From: an uncultured Clostridia bacterium
GTDB taxonomy: Bacteria > Bacillota > Clostridia > Christensenellales > UBA1242
NCBI GenBank assembly: GCA_944377485.1
Contig: CALWFB010000005.1
Coordinates: forward strand, 12,236-76,235
Direction: 5' to 3'
DNA: 64,000 nt
Below, in pieces: positions 6,971-40,078 of this stretch (positions are counted from its first letter, which is position 1; the number at the start of each line of letters is the position of its first letter). The notes below the pieces were generated by a model. It was not told the DNA's origin and did no database searches. It saw only the letters and a list, made by a program, of their open reading frames with translations. A program made the position numbers and the translations under genes.

Positions 6971-7609
6971 ATGATTGAATTTAGACATGTTTATCTAAAA
7001 TACATAAAAGATTTCTACACTCTATATGATATTAATCTATCAATTAATGAAAATTCTTTGTTGATTGGTCAATGTTCTGATGGCACAAATTCCATTCTTC
7101 GATTGATTAGTAAAATAGATAAAAAATATGAGGGAAATATTTTTTTTGATGATTTGAATTTAAAAGTTCTGAAAGATAAAGATTTAGATATTGCATATGT
7201 TAGTGAAAAACCTTATCTTTTTAAAAGCAAATCAGTTTTTGAAAATCTGTATTATCCTCTAAAAATACGAAAAGTTAAACAAAATGAAGCAAAGATAATC
7301 ATAGACTCTTACATTAATAAATTTAAAATAAATTTTGCATTGAATAAAATCAAAAATCTGACATATTCTCAGCAAAAAATTGTCACCCTACTTCGTGCAC
7401 TAATCAGAAAACCAAAATATGTTTTACTCGAACATTATTTTAAAGATTTAGACGAAAATCAAATATCCCTAGCAGAAAATATAATAAATGAAATGAAGCA
7501 ACATTCGACAATAATCGCATGTGAAGATTTAGATACCAACATCTCCTGCTTTAATGATTTTAGACGTATCAAACTAGAAAATGGCAGTTTAATCCATTCT
7601 GACAAATAA
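6971..7609 (+). CDS. ABC-ATPase-like protein with degenerate catalytic motifs
   Basis: Co-linear with ABC nucleotide-binding domains, but Walker A is GQCSDGTNS (no Lys), the signature is LTYSQQ and Walker B is VLLEHYF (no Asp-Glu). Confidence 0.7.
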   Translation: MIEFRHVYLKYIKDFYTLYDINLSINENSLLIGQCSDGTNSILRLISKIDKKYEGNIFFDDLNLKVLKDKDLDIAYVSEKPYLFKSKSVFENLYYPLKIRKVKQNEAKIIIDSYINKFKINFALNKIKNLTYSQQKIVTLLRALIRKPKYVLLEHYFKDLDENQISLAENIINEMKQHSTIIACEDLDTNISCFNDFRRIKLENGSLIHSDK

Positions 7610-8243: not shown

Positions 8244-10724
8244 TTAATCTTTATCTTCAGTTTTGGTCATGAAAACTAGATTATCATTCTTACAATCTAT
8301 AAGAATACTATCTCCCGACTTGACTTCACCTTTTAACATTTTATCTGCTAATTCATCTTCAATTTTTGTAGTAATTAACCTACGCAATGGTCTAGCCCCA
8401 AACTCATCGTTTGTTCCGTTTTTTACTAAATAATTTAATGTCGCAGTAGTGAATTTTATTTCTACTCCGCTCTGTTTCAAATTTTTATTCAAATCGGCAA
8501 GCATCTTTTTCGCAATATCTTTTAAAACTTGTGGATTTAATTTGTTAAATATTACTATGTTATCAATACGGTTAATCAATTCTGGTTTGAAATATTTTTT
8601 CAATTCACTCAACATCACAGTAGTCTTATCATCTTTTGAACCGTCATTGAAGCCTAAGTCAACATTTGTCTTGCTAAGTTTGTCACTACCAATATTTGAT
8701 GTTAAAATTATTATTGTGTTTTTAAAACTAACAATCTTTCCATGGCTATCTGTTAGACGTCCGTCATCAAGAATTTGAAGCAACATATTGAAAACTTCTG
8801 GGTGTGCTTTTTCTATTTCATCAAACAAAACAACACTATAAGGTTTTCTTCTGACTTGTTCTGTCAACTGTCCACCATCATCAAATCCAACATATCCAGG
8901 AGGGCTACCTATCAATTTTGACACACTATGTGCTTCCATATATTCGCTCATATCAAGTCGGATTATTTTATTTTCATCATCAAACAATGCTTCTGCAAGT
9001 GCTTTACTCAATTCTGTTTTACCTACACCAGTAGGACCTAAGAATAAGAAACTTCCTATTGGTCTTTTAGGGTCACGAATTCCAATACGACTTCTTCTGA
9101 TTGCCTTTGCAACTTTTTCTACCGCTTCGTCTTGACCTTTTACACGCTGTGACAAGGTTTTTTCTAGATTAATTAGTTTCTCAGCCTCCCCTTCTGTCAA
9201 TTTTGTTAGTGGAATATTTGTCCATTTGCTGACAACTTCTGCAACATCATGTTCAGTAATTGTGGCATCTGTTTGTTCGCTTGTAGAAGGAATTGATTTT
9301 AATCTTTCAATTTCATCTTTTAATTTAGTCACTTTATCACGCAACTTACCAGCTTTTTCAAAATCTTCTTGCGTGACAGCATCTTCTTTTTCTGCTTCTG
9401 TCTTTTTCAATTTTTCTTTTAATGCTTTAATTTCGTCCGAATCATAATTATTTTTCACTTTTGCTCTACTTGATGCCTCATCTATAAGGTCAATAGCTTT
9501 ATCTGGAAGGCTCCTATCTTGAATATATCTATCAGACAAAGTCGCAGCAGCCTTAATCGCTTCATCTGTAATTTTCACTTTATGGAAAGCTTCATAACTA
9601 TCTCTTAAACCCCTTAAAATCTCGATTGTTTGTTCAACTGTTGGTGGGTCAATTATGATTGGTTGAAAACGTCTTTCCAATGCTTTATCTTTCTCTATAT
9701 ACTTTCTATATTCGTCCGTAGTTGTAGCTCCAATTGTCTGCATCTCACCACGAGCAAGATATGGTTTCAACATATCTGCCGGATTAGTCTCACCTTTGTC
9801 TGTGCCAACTTGTGCAAGAGTATGGATTTCATCAATAAATACTATTATATTCTTATTTGAAGTAATCAATTCAATAGCATTTTTTAGTTTTTCTTCCATT
9901 GAACCACGATATTTTGTACCTGCCATCAAACCACCAATATCTAGACTATAAATAATTTTGTTTTTCAAAAATTGTGGCACATCTCCTGCAACTATTCTTC
10001 TGGCGAGTCCTTCGACTACCGCTGTTTTACCAACACCTGCTTCACCAATTAAAACAGGATTATTTTTGGTTTTTCTACAAAGGATTTCAATCATACGTTC
10101 TATTTCGTTATCTCGACCTATGATTGGGTCTATCTTTCCATTTTTTGCACGCATTGTTAAATCGCTGCCCATTTCTAGTAATTCAGAAGGAAGTTCGCTG
10201 GTATATGCTTCCTGTCTAGGTGCATTATCTGAACCCATATTACCAACTTGGACAAAACCATTCATGTCAAATTCGTTTGAGGAATTTGAATTGGTCGTGT
10301 TAGTGTTATTGGTTATAATACTGATGGCTTTGTTTCTCATTTCATAAACATTTAATTTCAATGCACCAGCCAAAATATTTATTGCAAAACTATCCTCTTG
10401 GCTCAAAAGAGCTACAAGCAAATGTTCGGTTGAGATATAAGCACTTCTAGTACGTTTTGCCACACTATTTGCAATCATTAACAATTCTTTTGTCCTAGGG
10501 GTGAGTTCAACCACACTAGATGGAATACCTCCAACAACACCATCAAGAATTTCTTTGACAATATCACTGTCAACACGATATGCTTTTAAAAGTTTTTTTG
10601 ATTTGCTTTCAACTTTTGTCAAAGCATATAAGATATGTTCAGTACCAACTTCATTGCCATAATTTGATGCAAATTGTGAAGCAATTTGTATACATTTATT
10701 TGCTAAATCTGTTAAATTGTACAT
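8244..10724 (-). CDS. clpC: ATP-dependent Clp protease ATP-binding subunit ClpC
   Basis: Clp_N repeats, two AAA+ modules (GEAGVGKT and GPTGVGKT), and a UVR-like linker (FEKAGKLRD). It is the last gene of the ctsR-mcsA-mcsB-clpC arrangement. Confidence 0.95.
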
Positions 10725-29616: not shown

Positions 29617-30591
29617 ATGGAAAAACTAAAAGTTCATGAAAATACAGAAAACGAATGGGAAATAGCATATGAGTTATTTGGAAATAGAGAATCAAAAAAT
29701 CTTATATTCATGATTCATGGCGGAGGAATGGAATCTCACGAAAAAGCACCATACCTCACCGAAATAACATATGAAGTGACCGGCAAACGTGCCAAAACCT
29801 TTGAAGATATGGTTCAAGGAAACTACGAAAGATTGACGGAGTCTATTCTAAAAGACAATCCAGACATATTAATTTGTAGAATTGATTTGCGCAACCATGG
29901 TGAAAGTTTGGTTGATGGTAAAATGGATACAAGGAACACCTCATTTCCTCTTCTTGCTGATGACACTGCCGAAGTGCTAAGATATATCAAAACAAAATAT
30001 AATATTGAGCAAACACAAATTGTGGGAACGTGTATGGGCTGTTTAGTGACAGAATACATGTTGACCAATCCTAAAAATAAAGATTTATCTGAAAATGTTT
30101 CTGCGGTTGTATTTAATAGCCCACTTTCTACTCAATTTCTAGCCTTTCCTACTCCTAATGAAAAATTCAATTTCAGCAAATATCAACTACTTATGAATTC
30201 GCCAGAGGGAACGCAATTTACAAAAATGAAAGGAGTATTTGATTCAAAAGCCACATTAGAAGAATTGAAAGAACACCCTAACCTACATGTTGAATATGCT
30301 AGCCTTAATATTCCTACTCAAATATTTCTTGGATATGGTGATAGATTATTGCCATACCAAAGAGCAAAAAAATTGGCGATGGAAATGAAAAAAGTAAATC
30401 CTAATTGTGAAATCATCAAAGTAAGTCGCTCACCAGAAAAGGTCATTAGAAAAAATAATATTATCAGAAAAATTATTTCACAAGACGCCAATCATTGCCT
30501 ATATGACCCAAAATCTTCGTATGAATTTGTTTCAAAATCAACAAAATTTTTAGAAGACAATTTGATTGCATCAACCGAATTAAGCTTATAA
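29617..30591 (+). CDS. alpha/beta-hydrolase-fold protein
   Basis: HGGG oxyanion-type motif and a nucleophile-elbow position reading G-T-C-M-G (Cys instead of Ser). Confidence 0.65.
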   Translation: MEKLKVHENTENEWEIAYELFGNRESKNLIFMIHGGGMESHEKAPYLTEITYEVTGKRAKTFEDMVQGNYERLTESILKDNPDILICRIDLRNHGESLVDGKMDTRNTSFPLLADDTAEVLRYIKTKYNIEQTQIVGTCMGCLVTEYMLTNPKNKDLSENVSAVVFNSPLSTQFLAFPTPNEKFNFSKYQLLMNSPEGTQFTKMKGVFDSKATLEELKEHPNLHVEYASLNIPTQIFLGYGDRLLPYQRAKKLAMEMKKVNPNCEIIKVSRSPEKVIRKNNIIRKIISQDANHCLYDPKSSYEFVSKSTKFLEDNLIASTELSL

Positions 30592-30600
30592 AATTAAATA

Positions 30601-30628
30601 AAAAAACTTCCTTAAATGGAAGTTTTTT
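30601..30628. terminator. bidirectional rho-independent terminator
   Basis: aacttcc-loop-ggaagtt flanked by an A-run and a T-run, between convergent genes. Confidence 0.7.
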
Positions 30629-30977
30629 ACATATCTAGGATTGTATTGATTGCAACTGTATTTGCAGATTTATAATCATCAATATCAGAAATTAGCGCAT
30701 ATACCTTATTTTCATTAATTCTATTCAAAAGACTCTTCATTAATGTTAAATAATCCATATATTCTTCACTATACTCTAATTTAGGACTGTTAGACTTTAA
30801 AATCATCTTTCTAAAAGCGCTTTTTCTTAACAATCTAAAATTAGCTTTTTGAATATAATTAATTTCTTTTTCAATTATAGATATAGTTTTATTGGTATCT
30901 TCTTGCACATTATAAATATTGCTAGCCAATTTCAATTTTCTCATAGATAATTTTCTTAACAAACTTGCTTTCGTCAT
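30627..30977 (-). CDS. hypothetical helical protein
   Basis: 116-aa ORF with no recognisable motif. Confidence 0.45.
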   Translation of the reverse strand: MTKASLLRKLSMRKLKLASNIYNVQEDTNKTISIIEKEINYIQKANFRLLRKSAFRKMILKSNSPKLEYSEEYMDYLTLMKSLLNRINENKVYALISDIDDYKSANTVAINTILDM

Positions 30978-31053
30978 AATTAAACCACCTTTATTATGTG
31001 TAGTATATTAGCACATCAATACAAATTTGTCAATATTGAAATTTTAATAAATA

Positions 31054-31278
31054 TTAATTATCTGAAATTCCTAAAATGTAATTGGCATCAGCACCTATAA
31101 CTTCACAAATGCGAGCCAATGTTTCTAATGATGGTAGTTTATTTGTTGTCCTATATTGACTAAGCAATGCAACATTTATTTCAACTGCTTTTGCAATATC
31201 CGTATATTTCATGCCACAATTCTCTAATTCTTCTTTTAATCTTGTTTTGATTAAATCTCTTCTTATCTTATTTTTCAT
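31054..31278 (-). CDS. small XRE-family HTH regulator (copy 1)
   Basis: 74 aa with a Cro/C1-type HTH (MKYTDIAKAVEINVALLSQYRTTNKLPSLETLARICEVIGADANYILG). The homologous part begins at Met17 of the track ORF. Confidence 0.85.
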   Translation of the reverse strand: MKNKIRRDLIKTRLKEELENCGMKYTDIAKAVEINVALLSQYRTTNKLPSLETLARICEVIGADANYILGISDN

Positions 31279-31346
31279 ATAAATATTATTGCCAAACGGG
31301 CAAAATATTACTTGACTTTTGCCCAACGGGAAAGTAAAATAATATT
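31279..31346. promoter_or_regulatory. 68-nt divergent control region with two palindromic operators and back-to-back promoters (module 1)
   Basis: O1 is TTGCC-AAACG-GGCAA (31289-31303) and O2 is TTGCC-CAACG-GGAAA (31319-33). For the + gene: TTGACT (31312-17), a 17-nt spacer, TAAAAT (31335-40), with the ATG 6 nt later. For the - gene: AATAAT (rc of 31285-90) lies 6 nt before its ATG. Confidence 0.65.
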
Positions 31347-31643
31347 ATGGATTGTAAAAATAAATTTTGTGTATATAATAGAAAATTAAAATGTATAAAA
31401 GATGAAATTTCAGTGAATAAGTATGGGCAATGCGCATACATTTTCTTACCAAAAGTTAAAACTTATTTTTCCGATGAAGAAAAACAGGACCATATTGATT
31501 GTTATAAAAATATATTATCCGATTTAAGTTTGGATTGGTATCTATACACTGAAAAATTAAAAATAGAAAATACTGAAATAAAATTAACAGATGAGGACAA
31601 TTTCAAAGATATTATCAATCGTTATTTTAACCGTCATCAATAA
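31347..31643 (+). CDS. small four-Cys protein, N-terminal DUF1540-like Cys motif (copy 1)
   Basis: MDCKNKFCVYNRKLKCIKDEISVNKYGQCAYIF shows the pattern C-x4-C-x-Y-N-x4-C-x3-E-I-S-V...C. It is divergent from XRE copy 1. Confidence 0.6.
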   Translation: MDCKNKFCVYNRKLKCIKDEISVNKYGQCAYIFLPKVKTYFSDEEKQDHIDCYKNILSDLSLDWYLYTEKLKIENTEIKLTDEDNFKDIINRYFNRHQ

Positions 31644-31854
31644 TTCCCAATATATAATTAGCATCTGCCCCAATAACTTCACAAATTGTAGAAAAATTTT
31701 CTATTGAGGGTAATTTTTTTCCACTTTTATATTGACTAAGTAATGCCACATTAATTCCAACAGCCTTAGCAATATCAATATATTTCAAACCACAATTTTC
31801 TAGTTCTTCTTTCAATCTTTTTTGTATTATTTCTCTTCTTAACTGTTTATTCAT
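31627..31854 (-). CDS. small XRE-family HTH regulator (copy 2, paralog of 31054-31278)
   Basis: 75 aa, roughly 70% identical by eye to copy 1 (LKYIDIAKAVGINVALLSQYKSGKKLPSIENFSTICEVIGADANYILG). Its 3' end overlaps the preceding + gene by 17 nt. Confidence 0.85.
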   Translation of the reverse strand: MNKQLRREIIQKRLKEELENCGLKYIDIAKAVGINVALLSQYKSGKKLPSIENFSTICEVIGADANYILGIIDDG

Positions 31855-31923
31855 ATGTATATTATTTACCAATGGGCAAAAAAATACTTGACGTTTACCA
31901 TTGGTAAACAATATAATATACAT
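31855..31923. promoter_or_regulatory. divergent control region with two palindromic operators (module 2)
   Basis: The operators are TTACC-AATG-GGCAA (31866-79) and the perfect palindrome TTTACCA-T-TGGTAAA (31894-908). For the + gene: TTGACG (31888-93), an 18-nt spacer, TATAAT (31912-17), with the ATG 6 nt later. For the - gene: AATAAT (rc of 31861-66) lies 6 nt before its ATG. Confidence 0.65.
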
Positions 31924-32208
31924 ATGAAATGTAAAAATTTATTTTGTGTATTTAGTAGAAGAAATGGTGAATGCATAAAGAAGTATATCTCCTTTGATGA
32001 AACAGGAATGTGTGAGCATATTTTTTATCCAGAAAGATTAAAAGGAATGCAAGACAGTTTAAAAGAATGTTATACAAAGGTTCCAAAAGGAATGGAAGGA
32101 CACCATTATAGACGTGAGATAATGTTGTATCTTCTAAACCAAGAACTCCGAGGAATCAAAAATTCAAGCAATCCAAAACAAGAAAAAGAAAATAAATCTC
32201 AACATTAA
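31924..32208 (+). CDS. small four-Cys protein, N-terminal DUF1540-like Cys motif (copy 2)
   Basis: MKCKNLFCVFSRRNGECIKKYISFDETGMCEHIF shares the Cys pattern with copy 1, while the C-terminal halves are unrelated. The homologous region starts at Met24 of the track ORF. Confidence 0.6.
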   Translation: MKCKNLFCVFSRRNGECIKKYISFDETGMCEHIFYPERLKGMQDSLKECYTKVPKGMEGHHYRREIMLYLLNQELRGIKNSSNPKQEKENKSQH

Positions 32209-32243
32209 TGAGATTCTAATTAATACATTTTCATATATAATGT

Positions 32244-32279
32244 CGCAAAAGCACTACGAACCTACTTTTGCGTTTTTTT
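32244..32279 (+). terminator. rho-independent terminator after the second Cys-rich gene
   Basis: cgcaaaag-loop-cttttgcg followed by ttttttt. Confidence 0.7.
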
Positions 32280-32308
32280 GTAAAAAAATTTTCAAAATTC
32301 TAATAAAA

Positions 32309-32662
32309 ACCTATTAATATAGGAAAAAGAGTAATGAGAGAAAACCTTTGGTAGTCGTCGAACATACAAAAAAAGAACCTATATCAAACATAAAAATATA
32401 AAATAATTAATTTATATAGTTATCATATCAATATTAACCATTAAAGAAAAATATTTAAAATAAATACCTATTGTTGGAAAGGAAGTAATGAAGGAAAACC
32501 TTTGCAAGGTGTTCCTTCATAGATGACGGGCAATCGCCCATAAATGAAAAAATCTCACTTTATAGTGATATTTTGATTAAAACGATAAAAAGTTTATCCT
32601 ATTTCAAAGGGGGAGTAATGAGGGGGAAAGACAGTTTTCCCCCTCATATAGTGTCGCAATAG
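32309..32662 (+). repeat. three dispersed copies of a CCTATT...GGAAAGGAGTAATGAGGGAAA repeat, each with an SD-like run, an ATG and (copies 2 and 3) a hairpin that pairs the ATG
   Basis: The ATGs are at 32334, 32488 and 32618, spaced 154 and 130 nt apart. Hairpins are atgaaggaa/ttccttcat (32488-32520) and atgagggggaaa/tttccccctcat (32618-32646). Confidence 0.6.
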
Positions 32663-32728
32663 CACGCTAATGCTATTTTTGCGATTTTACAAAAAAAATC
32701 GCAACTAGCACAAGGGCTAATTGCGACG

Positions 32729-32767
32729 CAGGTTGATGGCAACTATCTATTTTCTCGGGTCGTCTCC
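32729..32767 (-). pseudogene. orphan duplicate of the 3'-terminal 39 nt of the 5S rRNA locus
   Basis: The 39-nt string caggttgatggcaactatctattttctcgggtcgtctcc is identical to 32931-32969, the 3' part of the intact 5S gene. Confidence 0.85.
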
Positions 32768-32930
32768 GCGTCACGACTCTCGTATTTACTTAATTGCTCG
32801 CATCAACTCGCAATTTTCGTCTATCTCTCGGTCGTTCCTTTCCCCCACAAAACTTAATTTTGTAGGGACCCCTTTAGATTTGGTTGTTCGACGAAAATAT
32901 AAAAAAAGAACTCGTATCAAACGAGTTCAT
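32768..32930. other. 163-nt element between the 5S fragment and the intact 5S gene; homologous to 56794-56954
   Basis: Shares co-linear blocks with the tRNA-Leu-locus element: CGTC, ATTG(C/T)TCGC, CTCGCAATT, GTAGGGACCC and GACGAAA. Its right end contains the 5S terminator. Confidence 0.6.
32900..32928 (-). terminator. rho-independent terminator of the 23S-5S unit
   Basis: gaactcg-tatcaaa-cgagttc with a T-run on the minus strand, immediately 3' of the 5S gene. Confidence 0.7.
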
Positions 32931-32933
32931 CAG

Positions 32934-33053
32934 GTTGATGGCAACTATCTATTTTCTCGGGTCGTCTCCAACCAAATATCTTCGACGTGTAAGAGCTTAA
33001 CTTTTGTGTTCGGAATGGGAACAAGTGGAACCTCTTAGCTATTATCACCATCA
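32934..33053 (-). rRNA. rrf: 5S ribosomal RNA
   Basis: The reverse complement reads tgatggtgataatagctaagaggttccacttgttcccattccgaacacaaaagttaagctctt...gttgccatca. The conserved CCGAACAC/GTTAAGC core and a terminal helix are present. Ends are accurate to about 5 nt. Confidence 0.88.
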
Positions 33054-33280
33054 TGGTACATTGAACATCAATTTTCATTGATTTAGAACAATGACAGCTG
33101 CATACTTCGGACATTTGACTTTTTGGCAAATTGCTATGCAATTATAGCCTTTTTAGTCAATGTCCTTCATTACTTCTTTTCCTTTTATCATAATATGATT
33201 ATTAAATAATGAAATAAGAAGACAACGAAGTAAATATAAATACCGTAATTTAGTCAAAAATCATTTCTCAAAAGGAAGGT

Positions 33281-36207
<2,927 letters not shown>

Positions 36208-36417
36208 GTCTTTTTGTTCCTTTGATTAATGTTCTTTGGCAAAATTACAAATGAAATTGAAAAATAATATTGATGCTATTACTTTTCTCGTATTTGTATT
36301 TACTAAAATATGCAGTTGTCATTGTTCTTAAGTTCTACATAAGGAAGTGACAAAAGTCACTATTATATAGGTATTCAAGCAAGTAGCCAAGTGCTCCCTT
36401 ACGTTGAATGCAATATT

Positions 36418-36446
36418 AAGATACCACACATCAAAAGTTTTGTCAA
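36418..36446 (-). promoter_or_regulatory. sigma-A-type promoter directly upstream of the 23S rRNA
   Basis: On the gene strand: TTGACA (36446-41), a 17-nt spacer, TATCTT (36423-18), about 200 nt upstream of the 23S 5' end. Confidence 0.6.
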
Positions 36447-36844
36447 CGGTTTTTTAAAACTTTTTTTAAAAATTTTAGAATTTTTTTTATAAATTTTCTT
36501 TTTTTCGTCAAAACTTCTATAAAATAGACAATTTTCGAGCAAAAAAGATTCATAAAAGTACCTAAATTATCCAACTTATGTGAAAAATTTGTAAAAATTT
36601 TTCTATCTGCCGATTAAAAACTTTGTTTTTTTATTAAGTTTCATTATATTTTGTCATCACGTCTATTCTTCAATCAATATACAATATTGAAAATTTTTTT
36701 ATAAATTTCACTTTCTAGAATGTTATAAATGCAATTTTATTAACTATAATCTTTAATTTACTATTTATATATGTAATTATATAAATTTCTTTATCTATAT
36801 TATATATAATATATACCTTTATATACCTTATTATATATTTAAGT

Positions 36845-36877
36845 TAAAAAAGAGATAAGCCCTATGGGCTTATCTCT
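36845..36877 (-). terminator. rho-independent terminator overlapping the stop codon of the 234-aa gene
   Basis: 12-bp stem agagataagccc / gggcttatctct. The last four codons form one arm, with a T-run on the minus strand. Confidence 0.75.
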
Positions 36878-37566
36878 TTTAGGCTGGTGTATTCCAAGCG
36901 TAGTGTTATGTTGTCTTCTGTTTCGTAGCGTAGTTCTATTGTGTCTTCATTATCTATTAGGGTATATTCCTTCTCTCCTATGCGGATTATGTACCCATTC
37001 TCTGTACTTTCTAGCTCACCTTCTCCGCTTATCTCATATACCCCGTCTCTTATCGTTAGTTCTATCTTTACTATACCCGTCTCCGTTAATACTATCTTAG
37101 TTAATTCTCTATCTGTATTTCCTTTACTGAACCTTAGTGTTGCATTCTCACCATAACCTTGTCCTCCCATCTCTATTCCATTGATTGGGTTCTCTTCTCG
37201 GCTTGGGGTACCACTCTCTTGCTCGCTTAGGTCTCGGTAGATATATTCCTCTACTACTACGTTGTATCTATTCGCTTCTACTCGTACCTCTATTACCTTA
37301 TCGCTATCTAGTTTTATGCTCTCCTCTATCCTTTCGCCTGTCACTGTGTTTTGACTACTACCTTGAATTGACCATGCACATGTTAAATCAACAGTTTTTC
37401 TATCGCCATTGTAGTCTGTATAAGAAAGCTTCAAAGTGTATGAATTGGCAGCATAAGCATTCTCTTGTTTATTAAAATTGACTGCAAGAATACTAGATAA
37501 TGTAATCGTCATTAACATTATCAACAGAATTATTACAATCTTCTTCCCTTGTTTATATTTGAACAT
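36862..37566 (-). CDS. hypothetical secreted or membrane-anchored acidic protein, compositionally chimeric
   Basis: N-terminal signal/anchor (KKIVIILLIMLMTITLSSILAVNF...AYA) followed by a Glu-rich region with a beta-strand-like pattern. Codon usage changes sharply near 37335. Confidence 0.65.
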   Translation of the reverse strand: MFKYKQGKKIVIILLIMLMTITLSSILAVNFNKQENAYAANSYTLKLSYTDYNGDRKTVDLTCAWSIQGSSQNTVTGERIEESIKLDSDKVIEVRVEANRYNVVVEEYIYRDLSEQESGTPSREENPINGIEMGGQGYGENATLRFSKGNTDRELTKIVLTETGIVKIELTIRDGVYEISGEGELESTENGYIIRIGEKEYTLIDNEDTIELRYETEDNITLRLEYTSLKEISP

Positions 37567-39307: not shown

Positions 39308-40078
39308 ATGGATGATATAAATAAAATTATTGGCAAAAATTTATTAATTCTAAGAAAAAATGCAAAACTTACTCAAATGGAACTTGCCGAACGATTTAAT
39401 TATTCTGACAAGACAATTTCTAAATGGGAATCTGGAGAATCTTTGCCAAATATTGAAATTTTGTATGAGTTGGCAAAATTTTATAATACTACATTAGATG
39501 CTTTAACTGTTGAAAATGATATAATTGCCACTACTGAAAATAACAAACAAAAAGATAAGATGTTTCCTACCAAACTGATTATCACCCTGCTTGCTGTCAG
39601 TGCCGTTTGGTTGCTCGCCACAGTACTATTTGTCACATTTAAGATAGTTTATTCTCACAATTATCCTCTACTTTTCTTATGGGCTGTGCCGATTTCATGT
39701 ATAGTTCTAATCATATTTAATAGTATTTGGGGGAAATATTATTATTTATTTGCAATTCTATCGGTGCTTATTTGGAGCACTTTGGCATGTATTCATCTAC
39801 AACTAATTCAATATAATATTTGGATAATATATATTTTAGGCATTCCTCTTCAAGTTGCAATTATTCTTTGGGCTGCATTGATTAAGAAGCCAAGAAGTAG
39901 CAAGAAAAGGAAGAAAAAACAAGATACTTTAAATAAAGAAGAAATTAAAAAATCAAAAAAAGATAAAAAGCATATTGAGAAAAATAATGAGACTATAAAC
40001 GGCAATATTTCAAATTTACAATTCGAAACTAAACCAGATAATTTCAACAATAGCACAAATGAAAAAACGGACATGTAG
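39308..40078 (+). CDS. membrane-anchored XRE-family HTH protein with Lys-rich tail
   Basis: N-terminal Cro/C1 HTH (LRKNAKLTQMELAERFNYSDKTISKWESGESLPNIEILYELAKFYNTTLDAL), four predicted TM helices and a KKRKKKQ-rich C-terminus. Confidence 0.8.
   Translation: MDDINKIIGKNLLILRKNAKLTQMELAERFNYSDKTISKWESGESLPNIEILYELAKFYNTTLDALTVENDIIATTENNKQKDKMFPTKLIITLLAVSAVWLLATVLFVTFKIVYSHNYPLLFLWAVPISCIVLIIFNSIWGKYYYLFAILSVLIWSTLACIHLQLIQYNIWIIYILGIPLQVAIILWAALIKKPRSSKKRKKKQDTLNKEEIKKSKKDKKHIEKNNETINGNISNLQFETKPDNFNNSTNEKTDM

What the first reader, a model, noticed from the sequence alone, without database searches (positions are those of the whole stretch)
31054..32208. Tandemly duplicated divergent gene pair: mini XRE repressor plus small four-Cys (DUF1540-like) protein
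Two consecutive modules have the same architecture. Each has a 74-75-aa Cro/C1-type HTH protein on the minus strand and a 94-98-aa protein on the plus strand, separated by 68-69 nt. The two XRE copies are about 70% identical. The partners share only their first 35 or so residues, with a conserved pattern C-x4-C-x-(Y/F)-x...C-I-K-x-x-I-S...G-x-C-x-(Y/H)-I-F that resembles the DUF1540 Cys motif as far as I remember it. Their C-terminal halves are unrelated. That pattern suggests a conserved Zn/DNA or partner-binding head with diversified tails. The modules sit just 3' of the 5S rRNA gene in a region full of repeat scars, and no phage structural genes or integrase are present. The function could be a minimal bistable switch, a toxin-antitoxin-like pair or an addiction or defence module. 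I know of no described function for this pairing.
Basis: partly seen in the sequence, partly recalled or inferred. Interest (0 to 1): 0.65.

Follow-up and report, generated by a model that had tools for sequence, protein, structure and literature searches.

The report
Two repressor-gated small zinc-protein gene cassettes
Next to the 5S rRNA gene lie two tandem copies of a mini-module, in which a tiny XRE repressor faces a tightly controlled gene for a small four-cysteine (divergent DUF1540) protein; the same kind of module, undescribed and of unknown function, recurs in gut Clostridia genomes.

Summary
Four real genes lie at 31054-32208: XRE1(-)/Cys1(+) and XRE2(-)/Cys2(+), with intergenic gaps of 68 and 69 nt. 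All four are under purifying selection against a syntenic relative (dN/dS 0.013-0.30).

The Cys "head" (M-x-C-x-N-x-x-C…C…G-x-C) defines a family of small proteins, mostly about 50-110 aa, that always start at residue 1. The two window proteins fall below Pfam's DUF1540 threshold, but 12 of 28 relatives hit DUF1540 (best E 4e-7). "DUF1540-like" is therefore supported by bridging.

Each intergenic region carries a near-consensus promoter for the Cys gene that ends 6 nt before the ATG, which implies a leaderless mRNA. It also carries two dyad operators, one inside that promoter's spacer.

In 120 loci from Clostridia genomes, 91 of the 116 with enough upstream DNA have a divergent mini-repressor. 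It is XRE in 61 loci and ribbon-helix-helix in 30, and it is swapped even between 86%-identical Cys proteins. Twelve other loci carry a covarying riboswitch-like leader instead.

The unit is monocistronic, sits among housekeeping genes, and was not found in the phage, plasmid or viral collections searched.

Best reading: a repressor-gated cassette whose output is a small Cys4, probably zinc-binding, effector. It is not a toxin-antitoxin pair and not a prophage remnant. The effector's target is unknown.

The parts
31054..31278 (-). XRE1: 74-aa Cro/C1-type HTH repressor with no sensor domain.
   Evidence: Pfam HTH_26 30.1 bits and HTH_3 24.9 bits, both above cut-off. 97% identical to its L001 ortholog, dN/dS 0.013.
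31289..31303 (.). Operator O_L1: perfect dyad TTGCC-N5-GGCAA, 10 nt upstream of the XRE1 start codon. It lies where the spacer of a putative XRE1 promoter would be.
   Evidence: The half-sites are conserved in L001 while the central bases differ.
31312..31340 (+). Promoter of Cys1: TTGACT-17 nt-TAAAAT. The -10 hexamer ends 6 nt before the ATG, and there is no Shine-Dalgarno sequence, so a leaderless mRNA is inferred.
   Evidence: 10 of 12 consensus matches. Conserved in L001 as TTGACA-17-TAAAAT.
31319..31333 (.). Operator O_R1: TTGCCCAACGGGAAA, inside the -35/-10 spacer of the Cys1 promoter.
   Evidence: Its centre is 30 bp from the centre of O_L1.
31347..31643 (+). Cys1: 98-aa protein. Residues 1-36 form the four-Cys head (divergent DUF1540). 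The tail is helical.
   Evidence: dN/dS 0.036. DUF1540 E 0.084. AF2 head pLDDT 86-92, helices at 43-73 and 83-97.
31627..31854 (-). XRE2: 75-aa Cro/C1-type HTH repressor, paralog of XRE1. Its 3' end overlaps the Cys1 stop by 17 nt.
   Evidence: Pfam HTH_3 34.6 bits. 70% identical to XRE1, with an identical stretch NVALLSQY.
31866..31879 (.). Operator O_L2: TTACCAATGGGCAA.
   Evidence: (I11).
31888..31917 (+). Promoter of Cys2: TTGACG-18 nt-TATAAT. The -10 hexamer ends 6 nt before the ATG.
   Evidence: 11 of 12, the best promoter match in the region scanned. A 16-nt perfect inverted repeat, 31850-31865 / 31913-31928, mirrors the two gene starts (I12).
31895..31907 (.). Operator O_R2: perfect dyad TTACCA-T-TGGTAA, inside the spacer of the Cys2 promoter.
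31924..32208 (+). Cys2: 94-aa protein. Residues 1-37 form the four-Cys head. The tail is conserved in relatives P0003-P0007 and P0014.
   Evidence: dN/dS 0.16-0.19 against two relatives. Alignment. AF2 pTM 0.64, helices at 44-51 and 56-81.

Best explanation
Each module is a self-contained, chromosomally fixed, repressor-gated cassette.

**Regulatory half.** The 74-75-aa XRE protein is a bare HTH domain with no sensor domain. I infer that it binds as a dimer to two dyad operators in the 68-69-nt intergenic region. One operator lies inside the -35/-10 spacer of a near-consensus sigma-A promoter for the Cys gene, so occupancy would block RNA polymerase and keep the Cys gene off. The other lies just upstream of the XRE start codon, where it would autoregulate the weak XRE promoter. 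The operator centres are 28.5-30 bp apart, about three helical turns, which would allow cooperative binding. Both Cys mRNAs, and probably both XRE mRNAs, would start at or next to the ATG and so be leaderless.

**Output half.** The regulated output is a small protein. Its first 36 or so residues form a Cys4 knuckle of the DUF1540 type, probably binding zinc. Its variable helical tail would engage a cellular target that is not yet known.

**The two copies.** The modules arose by tandem duplication of the whole unit. Because the repressors share a central helix stretch and nearly the same half-sites (TTGCC versus TTACC), the two copies probably cross-regulate.

**Shown versus inferred.** Shown here: the genes are real, the promoter and operator geometry, the family-wide pairing with exchangeable repressors, and the absence of a mobile-element context. 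Inferred: DNA binding and repression, leaderless transcripts, metal binding, and the effector role.
For: - **Coding genes.** Purifying selection on all four genes.
- **Promoters.** TTGACT-17-TAAAAT and TTGACG-18-TATAAT are the two best promoter matches in the region scanned, and both end 6 nt before the ATG. The same -10/ATG geometry occurs at other genes in the window.
- **Operators.** The motif TT[GA]CC-N3-5-GG[GCT]AA occurs in the 64-kb window only at the four intergenic sites: 7 strand hits against 1.27 expected. The half-sites are conserved in L001 while the operator centres vary. Intergenic region 1 is 82% identical between the two species, against about 63% at third codon positions.
- **Family.** The profile search found small proteins, mostly 43-110 aa, with the head at residue 1 in nearly all. 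12 of 28 hit DUF1540.
- **Pairing.** 91 of 116 genomic loci with enough upstream DNA have a divergent mini-repressor roughly 35-160 nt upstream, apart from three loci where the ORF call overlapped the Cys start. It is XRE in 61 loci and RHH in 30. Palindromes overlap the promoters of the Cys genes.
- **Partner exchange.** Partners are swapped while the Cys protein stays 60-86% identical. This fits control at the DNA level and not a specific protein-protein pair.
- **Alternative control.** A clade without a repressor has a covarying leader ending in a terminator. The gene is therefore a conditionally expressed output.
- **Context.** Downstream neighbours are diverse housekeeping genes, 66 of 93 convergent.
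- **Mobile elements.** No hits in phage, plasmid or viral collections.
- **Structure.** The head is modelled confidently, pLDDT 86-92.
Against: - Nothing here is experimental. Binding, repression, transcription start sites and metal content are all inferred.
- The XRE promoters have no convincing -35 element.
- In module 1 the perfect dyad sits over the XRE side and the imperfect one over the Cys promoter. This is not the arrangement expected if tight Cys repression were the priority.
- The repressors have no sensor domain, so the inducing signal is unknown.
- O_R2 has a different half-site spacing (N3) from its L001 counterpart (N5).
- The effector's target is unknown. Foldseek finds no solved structure resembling either model.
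- Evolutionary rates are correlated within modules: XRE1/Cys1 are both very slow and XRE2/Cys2 are both fast. This could mean the proteins do interact.
Confidence: 0.55

Rival explanations
1. Anti-repressor or bistable switch. The Cys protein binds its own XRE repressor, or competes with it, and so gives positive feedback like a CI/Cro toggle reduced to two genes.
For: - The back-to-back divergent promoters with two shared operators resemble a phage immunity switch.
- A leaderless repressor mRNA from a promoter with a weak -35 element recalls lambda P_RM (my own knowledge).
- Evolutionary rates are matched within each module.
- Typical family members are acidic, median pI 4.7, as many anti-repressors are.
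Against: - Cys proteins up to 86% identical sit next to repressors of different subfamilies with only 26% identity, and 60-64% identical ones sit next to XRE in one locus and RHH in another, with entirely different operator DNA.
- A whole clade has no repressor.
- The two window proteins are neutral or basic: pI 6.7 and 9.2.
Confidence: 0.13
2. Toxin-antitoxin-like or addiction/defence pair. The Cys protein is a growth inhibitor and the XRE or RHH protein is its antidote, acting only on transcription.
For: - Exchange of XRE and RHH DNA-binding partners is typical of antitoxins.
- There are weak hits to HigA (E 0.011), CapH and the defence-associated HTH protein RmrA.
- The RHH class resembles MazE and EndoAI antitoxins only weakly, at E 0.4-1.1, below significance.
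- Several copies occur per genome.
Against: - The genes are divergent, not an operon.
- The partners have no extra toxin-binding segment.
- No PADLOC, Pfam or NCBIfam toxin family matches.
- Repressor-less copies exist with an ordinary ribosome-binding site.
- The locus shows stable synteny across at least three species next to the rRNA genes, with very low dN/dS.
- The family was not found in the plasmid or phage collections.
Confidence: 0.12
3. Decayed prophage or mobile-element immunity region of the RacR/YdaS or DicA/DicB kind, retained by chance.
For: - The XRE proteins hit phage repressor PHROGs (phrog_8 and phrog_3) and RstR.
- Two 55-56-aa DUF1540 proteins from Siphoviridae contigs appear among weak structural matches.
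- There are repeat scars next to the 5S gene.
Against: - No phage, integrase or transposase genes occur within about 10 kb on either side.
- There are zero relatives in 50,697 phage records, 72,556 plasmids and 2.9 million viral contigs.
- The locus is syntenic, and synonymous sites are near saturation (dS about 0.9-1.7) while the proteins are conserved.
- In Clostridia the units sit among housekeeping genes.
Confidence: 0.05
4. Structural spore or exosporium protein, like the DUF1540 protein CdeA of C. difficile, with the XRE as an ordinary local regulator.
For: CdeA carries DUF1540 (PMC7677010). Most relatives come from Clostridia.
Against: - Dedicated repressors or a riboswitch-like leader are not how spore-coat genes are usually controlled.
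- The proteins consist of a single head plus a helix and are often acidic.
- No sporulation genes are nearby.
Confidence: 0.04

Closest known systems
Pfam DUF1540 (PF07561), e.g. CdeA of C. difficile and Deide_05260 of Deinococcus deserti
   Same: A domain of about 40 aa with four conserved Cys. The head aligns to model positions 2-27. 12 of 28 family members hit the model, best E 4e-7. Deide_05260 is a 62-aa stand-alone DUF1540 protein induced by radiation (PMC4007540), so it too is a conditionally expressed small protein.
   Different: The two window proteins are below the gathering score: 13.4 bits against 22.1 for Cys1, and no hit for Cys2. This subfamily always starts at Met1 with M-x-C-x-N-x-x-C, carries a helical tail, and is paired with a mini-repressor. 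No function is known for DUF1540 itself.
Phage lambda-type immunity switch (CI/Cro with O_R and P_RM/P_R)
   Same: Divergent back-to-back promoters. Dyad operators overlap the promoters. The repressor is of the XRE type and is probably translated from a leaderless mRNA made from a promoter with a weak -35 element.
   Different: There is no phage. The repressor has no oligomerisation or cleavage domain. The gene in the Cro position encodes a Cys4 protein, not an HTH protein, and no early operon follows it.
RacR/YdaS-YdaT and DicA/DicB (cryptic-prophage XRE repressors that silence an adjacent divergent gene)
   Same: An XRE repressor is dedicated to silencing a neighbouring, divergently transcribed small gene.
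   Different: Those systems lie in recognisable prophage remnants and silence toxic Cro-like or cell-division-inhibitor genes. Here the context is housekeeping, the synteny is conserved, and toxicity is untested.
Type II toxin-antitoxin modules with XRE or RHH antitoxins (HigA, MazE, CopG-type)
   Same: Small two-gene units in several copies per genome, with the XRE or RHH DNA-binding partner exchanged between relatives.
   Different: They are operons with protein-level neutralisation. Here transcription is divergent, the partner is only a DNA-binding domain, and no toxin family matches.
WhiJ (XRE) / BldB (DUF397) paralogous pairs of Streptomyces (from my own knowledge, not tested here)
   Same: Many paralogous pairs per genome of an XRE regulator with a very small partner protein of unclear biochemical role.
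   Different: The small-protein family, phylum and gene arrangement are all different.

Membership tests
Cro/C1-type (XRE) HTH, PF01381/PF13443 | Match to the HTH profile above Pfam's gathering score. | tested here: met
   XRE1: HTH_26 30.1 bits against a cut-off of 22, and HTH_3 24.9 against 23. XRE2: HTH_3 34.6 against 23.
DUF1540 (PF07561) | Match to the profile above the gathering score of 22.1 bits. | tested here: not met
   Cys1 head scores 13.4 bits, E 0.084, and is the only Pfam hit. Cys2 has no hit. Homology is instead bridged: 12 of 28 relatives hit DUF1540, best E 4e-7.
DUF1540 (PF07561) | Four conserved cysteines in a domain of about 40 residues. | tested here: met
   C3, C8, C16 and C29 are invariant in 28 sequences. 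The head is modelled with pLDDT 86-92.
DUF1540 (PF07561) | Metal binding by the Cys4 site. This is presumed for the family and is not an established property. | not testable with these tools
   Needs purified protein and metal analysis.
Type II toxin-antitoxin system | Toxin and antitoxin are co-transcribed as an operon. | tested here: not met
   The genes are divergent, each with its own promoter. The same holds in 91 related loci.
Type II toxin-antitoxin system | The toxin belongs to a recognised toxin family, or is demonstrably toxic. | tested here: inconclusive
   No Pfam, NCBIfam, PHROG or PADLOC match for Cys1 or Cys2. Toxicity was not testable.
Type II toxin-antitoxin system | The antitoxin carries a toxin-neutralising segment besides its DNA-binding domain. 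| tested here: not met
   In XRE1 and XRE2 the HTH profile spans residues 13-69 of 74-75. Partners are exchanged between unrelated classes next to 86%-identical Cys proteins.
Prophage immunity region (CI/Cro) | Embedded in, or next to, phage genes such as integrase, replication or structural genes. | tested here: not met
   The flanks are PFK, GreA, HolB, PSP1, RsmI, a hydrolase, the 5S/23S rRNA genes, a glycosyltransferase and an aldolase. There are no relatives in the phage or viral collections.
Prophage immunity region (CI/Cro) | Divergent promoters with shared dyad operators. | tested here: met
Restriction-modification controller (C) protein | Adjacent restriction and methylase genes. | tested here: not met
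   No such genes lie next to the modules.

The most novel reading that the evidence does not exclude
The M-x-C-x-N-x-x-C family may be an undescribed class of conditionally expressed small zinc-finger effectors in gut Firmicutes. Its members would be wired to interchangeable dedicated gates: a mini-XRE, a mini-RHH, or a new riboswitch-like leader RNA. The tandem pair in this window would then be a cross-regulated two-output switch that controls a conserved cellular process.
Probability: 0.3. Interest if true: 0.75.

Novelty: new variant of a known kind. Interest (0 to 1): 0.52.

Why it matters
It gives DUF1540-type small proteins, which have no known function, a clear regulatory setting. They appear to be tightly gated outputs of dedicated mini-repressors or of an RNA leader, and they recur in gut Clostridia genomes. 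That makes them testable as stress- or signal-induced small effectors. The window's modules are very compact: about 600 bp each, with leaderless genes and two operators. They would be a convenient model for a minimal repressor/output circuit. The leader RNA found in the repressor-less relatives is a candidate new cis-regulatory RNA, and its ligand could reveal what the protein family responds to.

Tried and rejected
- **Direct family scans.** Cys1 and Cys2 gave nothing significant in Pfam, NCBIfam, PHROGs or PADLOC.
- **Word-index homolog searches.** Single proteins returned only near-identical sequences. The exhaustive profile search was needed.
- **The search for related loci with the broad alignment.** It failed for lack of a conserved stretch, so a degenerate DNA pattern was used instead.
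- **Metagenome scan.** It returned one locus, from the same species.
- **Solved structures.** The PDB sequence search gave no significant relative. The top hit was the ribosomal protein L31 zinc motif at E 0.034.
- **Foldseek.** Both AF2 models found nothing in the PDB. BFVD gave only weak hits, which included two DUF1540 proteins.
- **P0029.** This 1262-aa hit of the profile search is a chance match to an fn3-repeat protein.
- **Conserved third gene.** None exists; downstream neighbours are diverse.
- **Organism.** It could not be named, because names for the window's own proteins are withheld. The only named relative, P0018, is from Candidatus Onthoplasma, order Christensenellales.
- **Leaderless mRNA as a family feature.** Rejected. 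The Clostridia relatives have short leaders with a GGTGAT-type ribosome-binding site.
Full report
**1. The observation**

- XRE1: 31054-31278 (-), 74 aa.
- Cys1: 31347-31643 (+), 98 aa.
- XRE2: 31627-31854 (-), 75 aa.
- Cys2: 31924-32208 (+), 94 aa.

The intergenic gaps are 68 and 69 nt. Both minus-strand proteins match Cro/C1-type HTH profiles above Pfam's cut-offs and are 70% identical. Their DNA is 78% identical over 258 nt.

The plus-strand proteins share an N-terminal head of about 36 residues. It is 46% identical, with invariant C3, C8, C16, G27 and C29, and the two proteins then diverge.

The 5S rRNA gene is at 32936-33052 (-) and the 23S at 33279-36207 (-). The modules therefore lie just 3' of the 5S gene.

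**2. Are the genes real?**

A 12-kb contig from a related species, L001, has the same gene order: PFK, GreA, HolB, PSP1, a methyltransferase, RsmI, a hydrolase, a variable ORF, XRE1, Cys1, XRE2, Cys2, then 5S.

| Gene | dN/dS against L001 |
|---|---|
| XRE1 | 0.013 |
| Cys1 | 0.036 |
| XRE2 | 0.30 |
| Cys2 | 0.19 |

Synonymous sites are close to saturation, with dS about 0.9-1.7. A third species, L003, gives 0.16 for Cys2. All four are therefore protein-coding genes under purifying selection.

Module 1 is more conserved (97% and 88% identity) than the neighbouring housekeeping genes (76-82%). The locus next to the 5S gene is conserved in at least three species.

The longer 106-110-aa gene calls, P0001 and P0002, start at the TTG of the -35 box. 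They are almost certainly gene-caller artefacts, because every family member aligns from Met1.

**3. The head domain**

Cys1 and Cys2 hit nothing in Pfam, NCBIfam, PHROGs or PADLOC at E ≤ 1. The isolated Cys1 head has one Pfam hit, DUF1540, at E 0.084 and 13.4 bits against a cut-off of 22.1.

An exhaustive HMMER search with the head profile against 1.84 billion representative proteins gave 28 hits at E ≤ 0.001. Nearly all are proteins of 43-110 aa with the head at residues 1-36. Twelve of the 28 aligned family sequences hit DUF1540, best E 4e-7.

So the head is a divergent DUF1540 domain.

AlphaFold2 models the head confidently (pLDDT 86-92) and the tails as helices. Foldseek finds no similar solved structure. 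Among weak matches to viral models are two proteins of about 55 aa named "DUF1540 domain-containing protein".

The literature gives DUF1540 no function. It occurs in the exosporium protein CdeA (PMC7677010) and in a 62-aa radiation-induced protein of Deinococcus deserti (PMC4007540).

**4. Regulatory anatomy in the window**

The two best sigma-70-type promoter matches in the region scanned (30500-33100) are TTGACT-17-TAAAAT (31312-31340) and TTGACG-18-TATAAT (31888-31917). Each ends 6 nt before the ATG of a Cys gene, and neither gene has a Shine-Dalgarno sequence. I infer leaderless mRNAs. The same -10/ATG geometry occurs at other genes in the window, for example at 6971, 26225, 14670(-) and 61056(-). 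This looks like a habit of the organism.

Each intergenic region has two dyads.
- Module 1: TTGCCAAACGGGCAA (31289-31303) and TTGCCCAACGGGAAA (31319-31333).
- Module 2: TTACCAATGGGCAA (31866-31879) and TTACCATTGGTAA (31895-31907).

In the whole 64-kb window the motif TT[GA]CC-N3-5-GG[GCT]AA occurs only at these four sites: 7 strand hits against 1.27 expected.

In each module the right-hand dyad lies inside the spacer of the Cys promoter. The left-hand dyad lies just upstream of the XRE start, next to an AATAAT hexamer that could be the -10 of a weak XRE promoter.

Against L001 the half-sites and promoter hexamers are conserved while the operator centres differ. Intergenic region 1 is 82% identical, against about 63% at third codon positions and 54% in the non-coding DNA downstream of Cys2.

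From this I infer that the XRE dimer represses the Cys promoter and autoregulates its own gene. The two XRE proteins share the stretch NVALLSQY, and the half-sites differ at one base. Cross-regulation of the two modules is therefore likely.

**5. The module elsewhere**

Nearly all are Clostridia MAGs: Acutalibacteraceae, Oscillospiraceae and unclassified Clostridia. The proteins there have a median length of 59 aa.

Of the 116 loci with enough upstream sequence, 91 have a small divergent gene. Its start lies roughly 35-160 nt upstream, except in three loci where the ORF call overlapped the Cys start.
- 61 are XRE-type HTH proteins of several subfamilies. Pfam HTH_3 or HTH_26 was confirmed on representatives.
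- 30 are ribbon-helix-helix proteins. Their profile hits a solved CopG-family RHH protein at E 2e-4, and then CdbA, MazE7 and Arc more weakly.

Two further loci have clear CopG-type RHH genes. One metagenomic relative has an Arc-like partner, and a Candidatus Onthoplasma genome has an XRE partner. Palindromes overlap the promoters of the Cys genes in every class.

The partner class does not follow the Cys protein. L024 and L044 have Cys proteins 86% identical, but their repressors are only 26% identical and belong to different subfamilies. Fourteen pairs of loci have Cys proteins at least 60% identical with different partner classes, including XRE against RHH.

Downstream neighbours are unrelated housekeeping genes, 66 of 93 on the opposite strand. 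The unit is therefore a monocistronic output gene plus its gate.

**6. Repressor-less relatives**

Twelve of the 25 loci without a recognised partner share a conserved leader of about 190 nt. It has a promoter with an extended -10, a long-range helix, a conserved segment UUUGGUAAAAAUGCA, and an intrinsic terminator ending about 15 nt before the ribosome-binding site.

The long-range helix has changes on both sides at 6 of 10 pairs. For the whole structure, no shuffle in 500 reaches the observed covariation, and sliding the partner columns abolishes pairing. Rfam 15 has no matching family at gathering or permissive thresholds.

This looks like a riboswitch or attenuator that takes the place of the repressor. 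It strengthens the view that the Cys protein is a conditionally expressed output.

**7. Not a mobile element**

- No relative was found by tblastn (E ≤ 1) in 50,697 phage records, using Cys2 and a typical Clostridia member.
- None was found in 72,556 plasmids using the Clostridia member.
- None was found in 2.9 million viral contigs by the DNA pattern or by a protein alignment.
- The window flanks encode housekeeping functions.

**8. History of the array**

L001 has a third XRE copy, frameshifted, at about 9431-9660. It overlaps the Cys1 stop by 17 nt and ends in DDG, exactly as the window's XRE2 does. The array therefore once held at least three modules, and modules are gained and lost by recombination between paralogs.

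**9. What it most likely does**

The regulatory half is well supported by sequence evidence: a sensor-less repressor gates a strong promoter of a small gene.

The effector half is inferred: a Cys4, probably zinc-binding, knuckle with a helical tail that engages a target. The tails are conserved within subfamilies. Typical members are acidic, with median pI 4.7, while Cys1 is at 6.7 and Cys2 at 9.2. This favours a protein target over nucleic acid for most of the family.

The toxin-antitoxin, anti-repressor, prophage-remnant and spore-coat readings are each weakened by specific results given in the Rival explanations section. The inducing signal and the target remain unknown.

**10. Novelty and score**

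The logic of a local repressor with a divergent target is a known kind, and DUF1540 is a known but uncharacterised domain. What I could not find described is the recurrent, modular pairing of this small-protein subfamily with exchangeable mini-repressors or an RNA leader. Only six papers in the library mention DUF1540; the two I checked do not describe this, and the other four do not, judging by title and abstract. I rate it a new variant of a known kind, of moderate interest.

Noticed in passing
L012:6703-6889, L060:2537-2721, L096:1268-1450, L108:823-1010 (-) and eight other loci (alignment A6): A conserved leader of about 190 nt lies upstream of the repressor-less DUF1540-like genes in Clostridia MAGs. 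It has a promoter with an extended -10, a long-range helix with compensatory changes at 6 of 10 pairs (0 of 500 shuffles reach the observed covariation), a conserved UUUGGUAAAAAUGCA segment, and an intrinsic terminator just before the ribosome-binding site. No Rfam 15 family matches. It is a candidate new riboswitch or attenuator.
   Followed up: partly
L001:9431-9660 (-): The syntenic relative carries a third XRE copy, frameshifted, between Cys1 and XRE2. It overlaps the Cys1 stop by 17 nt and ends in DDG like the window's XRE2. A short remnant that may be a lost third Cys gene follows it. The array has gained and lost modules.
   Followed up: partly
window 32209-32969: The spacer between Cys2 and the 5S gene holds partial duplications of the 5S 3' end and its terminator region. 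There is a perfect 39-nt direct repeat (32729-32767 and 32931-32969), plus imperfect repeats 32235-32287/32646-32698 and 32355-32389/32888-32922. Two terminator-like hairpins lie on the minus strand (32727-32698 and 32928-32908). Part of this region is conserved in L001. The origin is unexplained.
   Followed up: no
window 33279-36207 and 36208-36861: The 23S and 5S rRNA genes are present, but no 16S gene lies upstream of the 23S. The next feature is a protein-coding ORF at 36862-37566 (-). The rRNA operon appears to be unlinked from the 16S gene.
   Followed up: no
window 6971, 26225 (+); 14670, 56476, 61056 (-): Several unrelated genes, including large ones, have a (TGn)TATAAT box ending 4-7 nt before the ATG and no Shine-Dalgarno sequence. 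Leaderless mRNAs seem to be common in this organism.
   Followed up: partly
window 30627-30977 (-): A 116-aa ORF with no family match sits next to XRE1. It has its own promoter-like site (31033-31005) and terminator (30628-30601). It is conserved within the species, but in L001 an unrelated 249-aa ORF takes its place. This is a variable slot beside the modules.
   Followed up: no
family alignment A3 against the PDB: The best sequence match of the family profile among solved structures is the zinc-motif region of ribosomal protein L31 (7ood_x, E 0.034). It is not significant and may be convergence between zinc knuckles.
   Followed up: no
window 39308-40075 (+): Another XRE-family protein, 256 aa with an N-terminal HTH_3 domain, lies about 7 kb away on the far side of the rRNA genes. 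Any relation to the modules is unknown.
   Followed up: no
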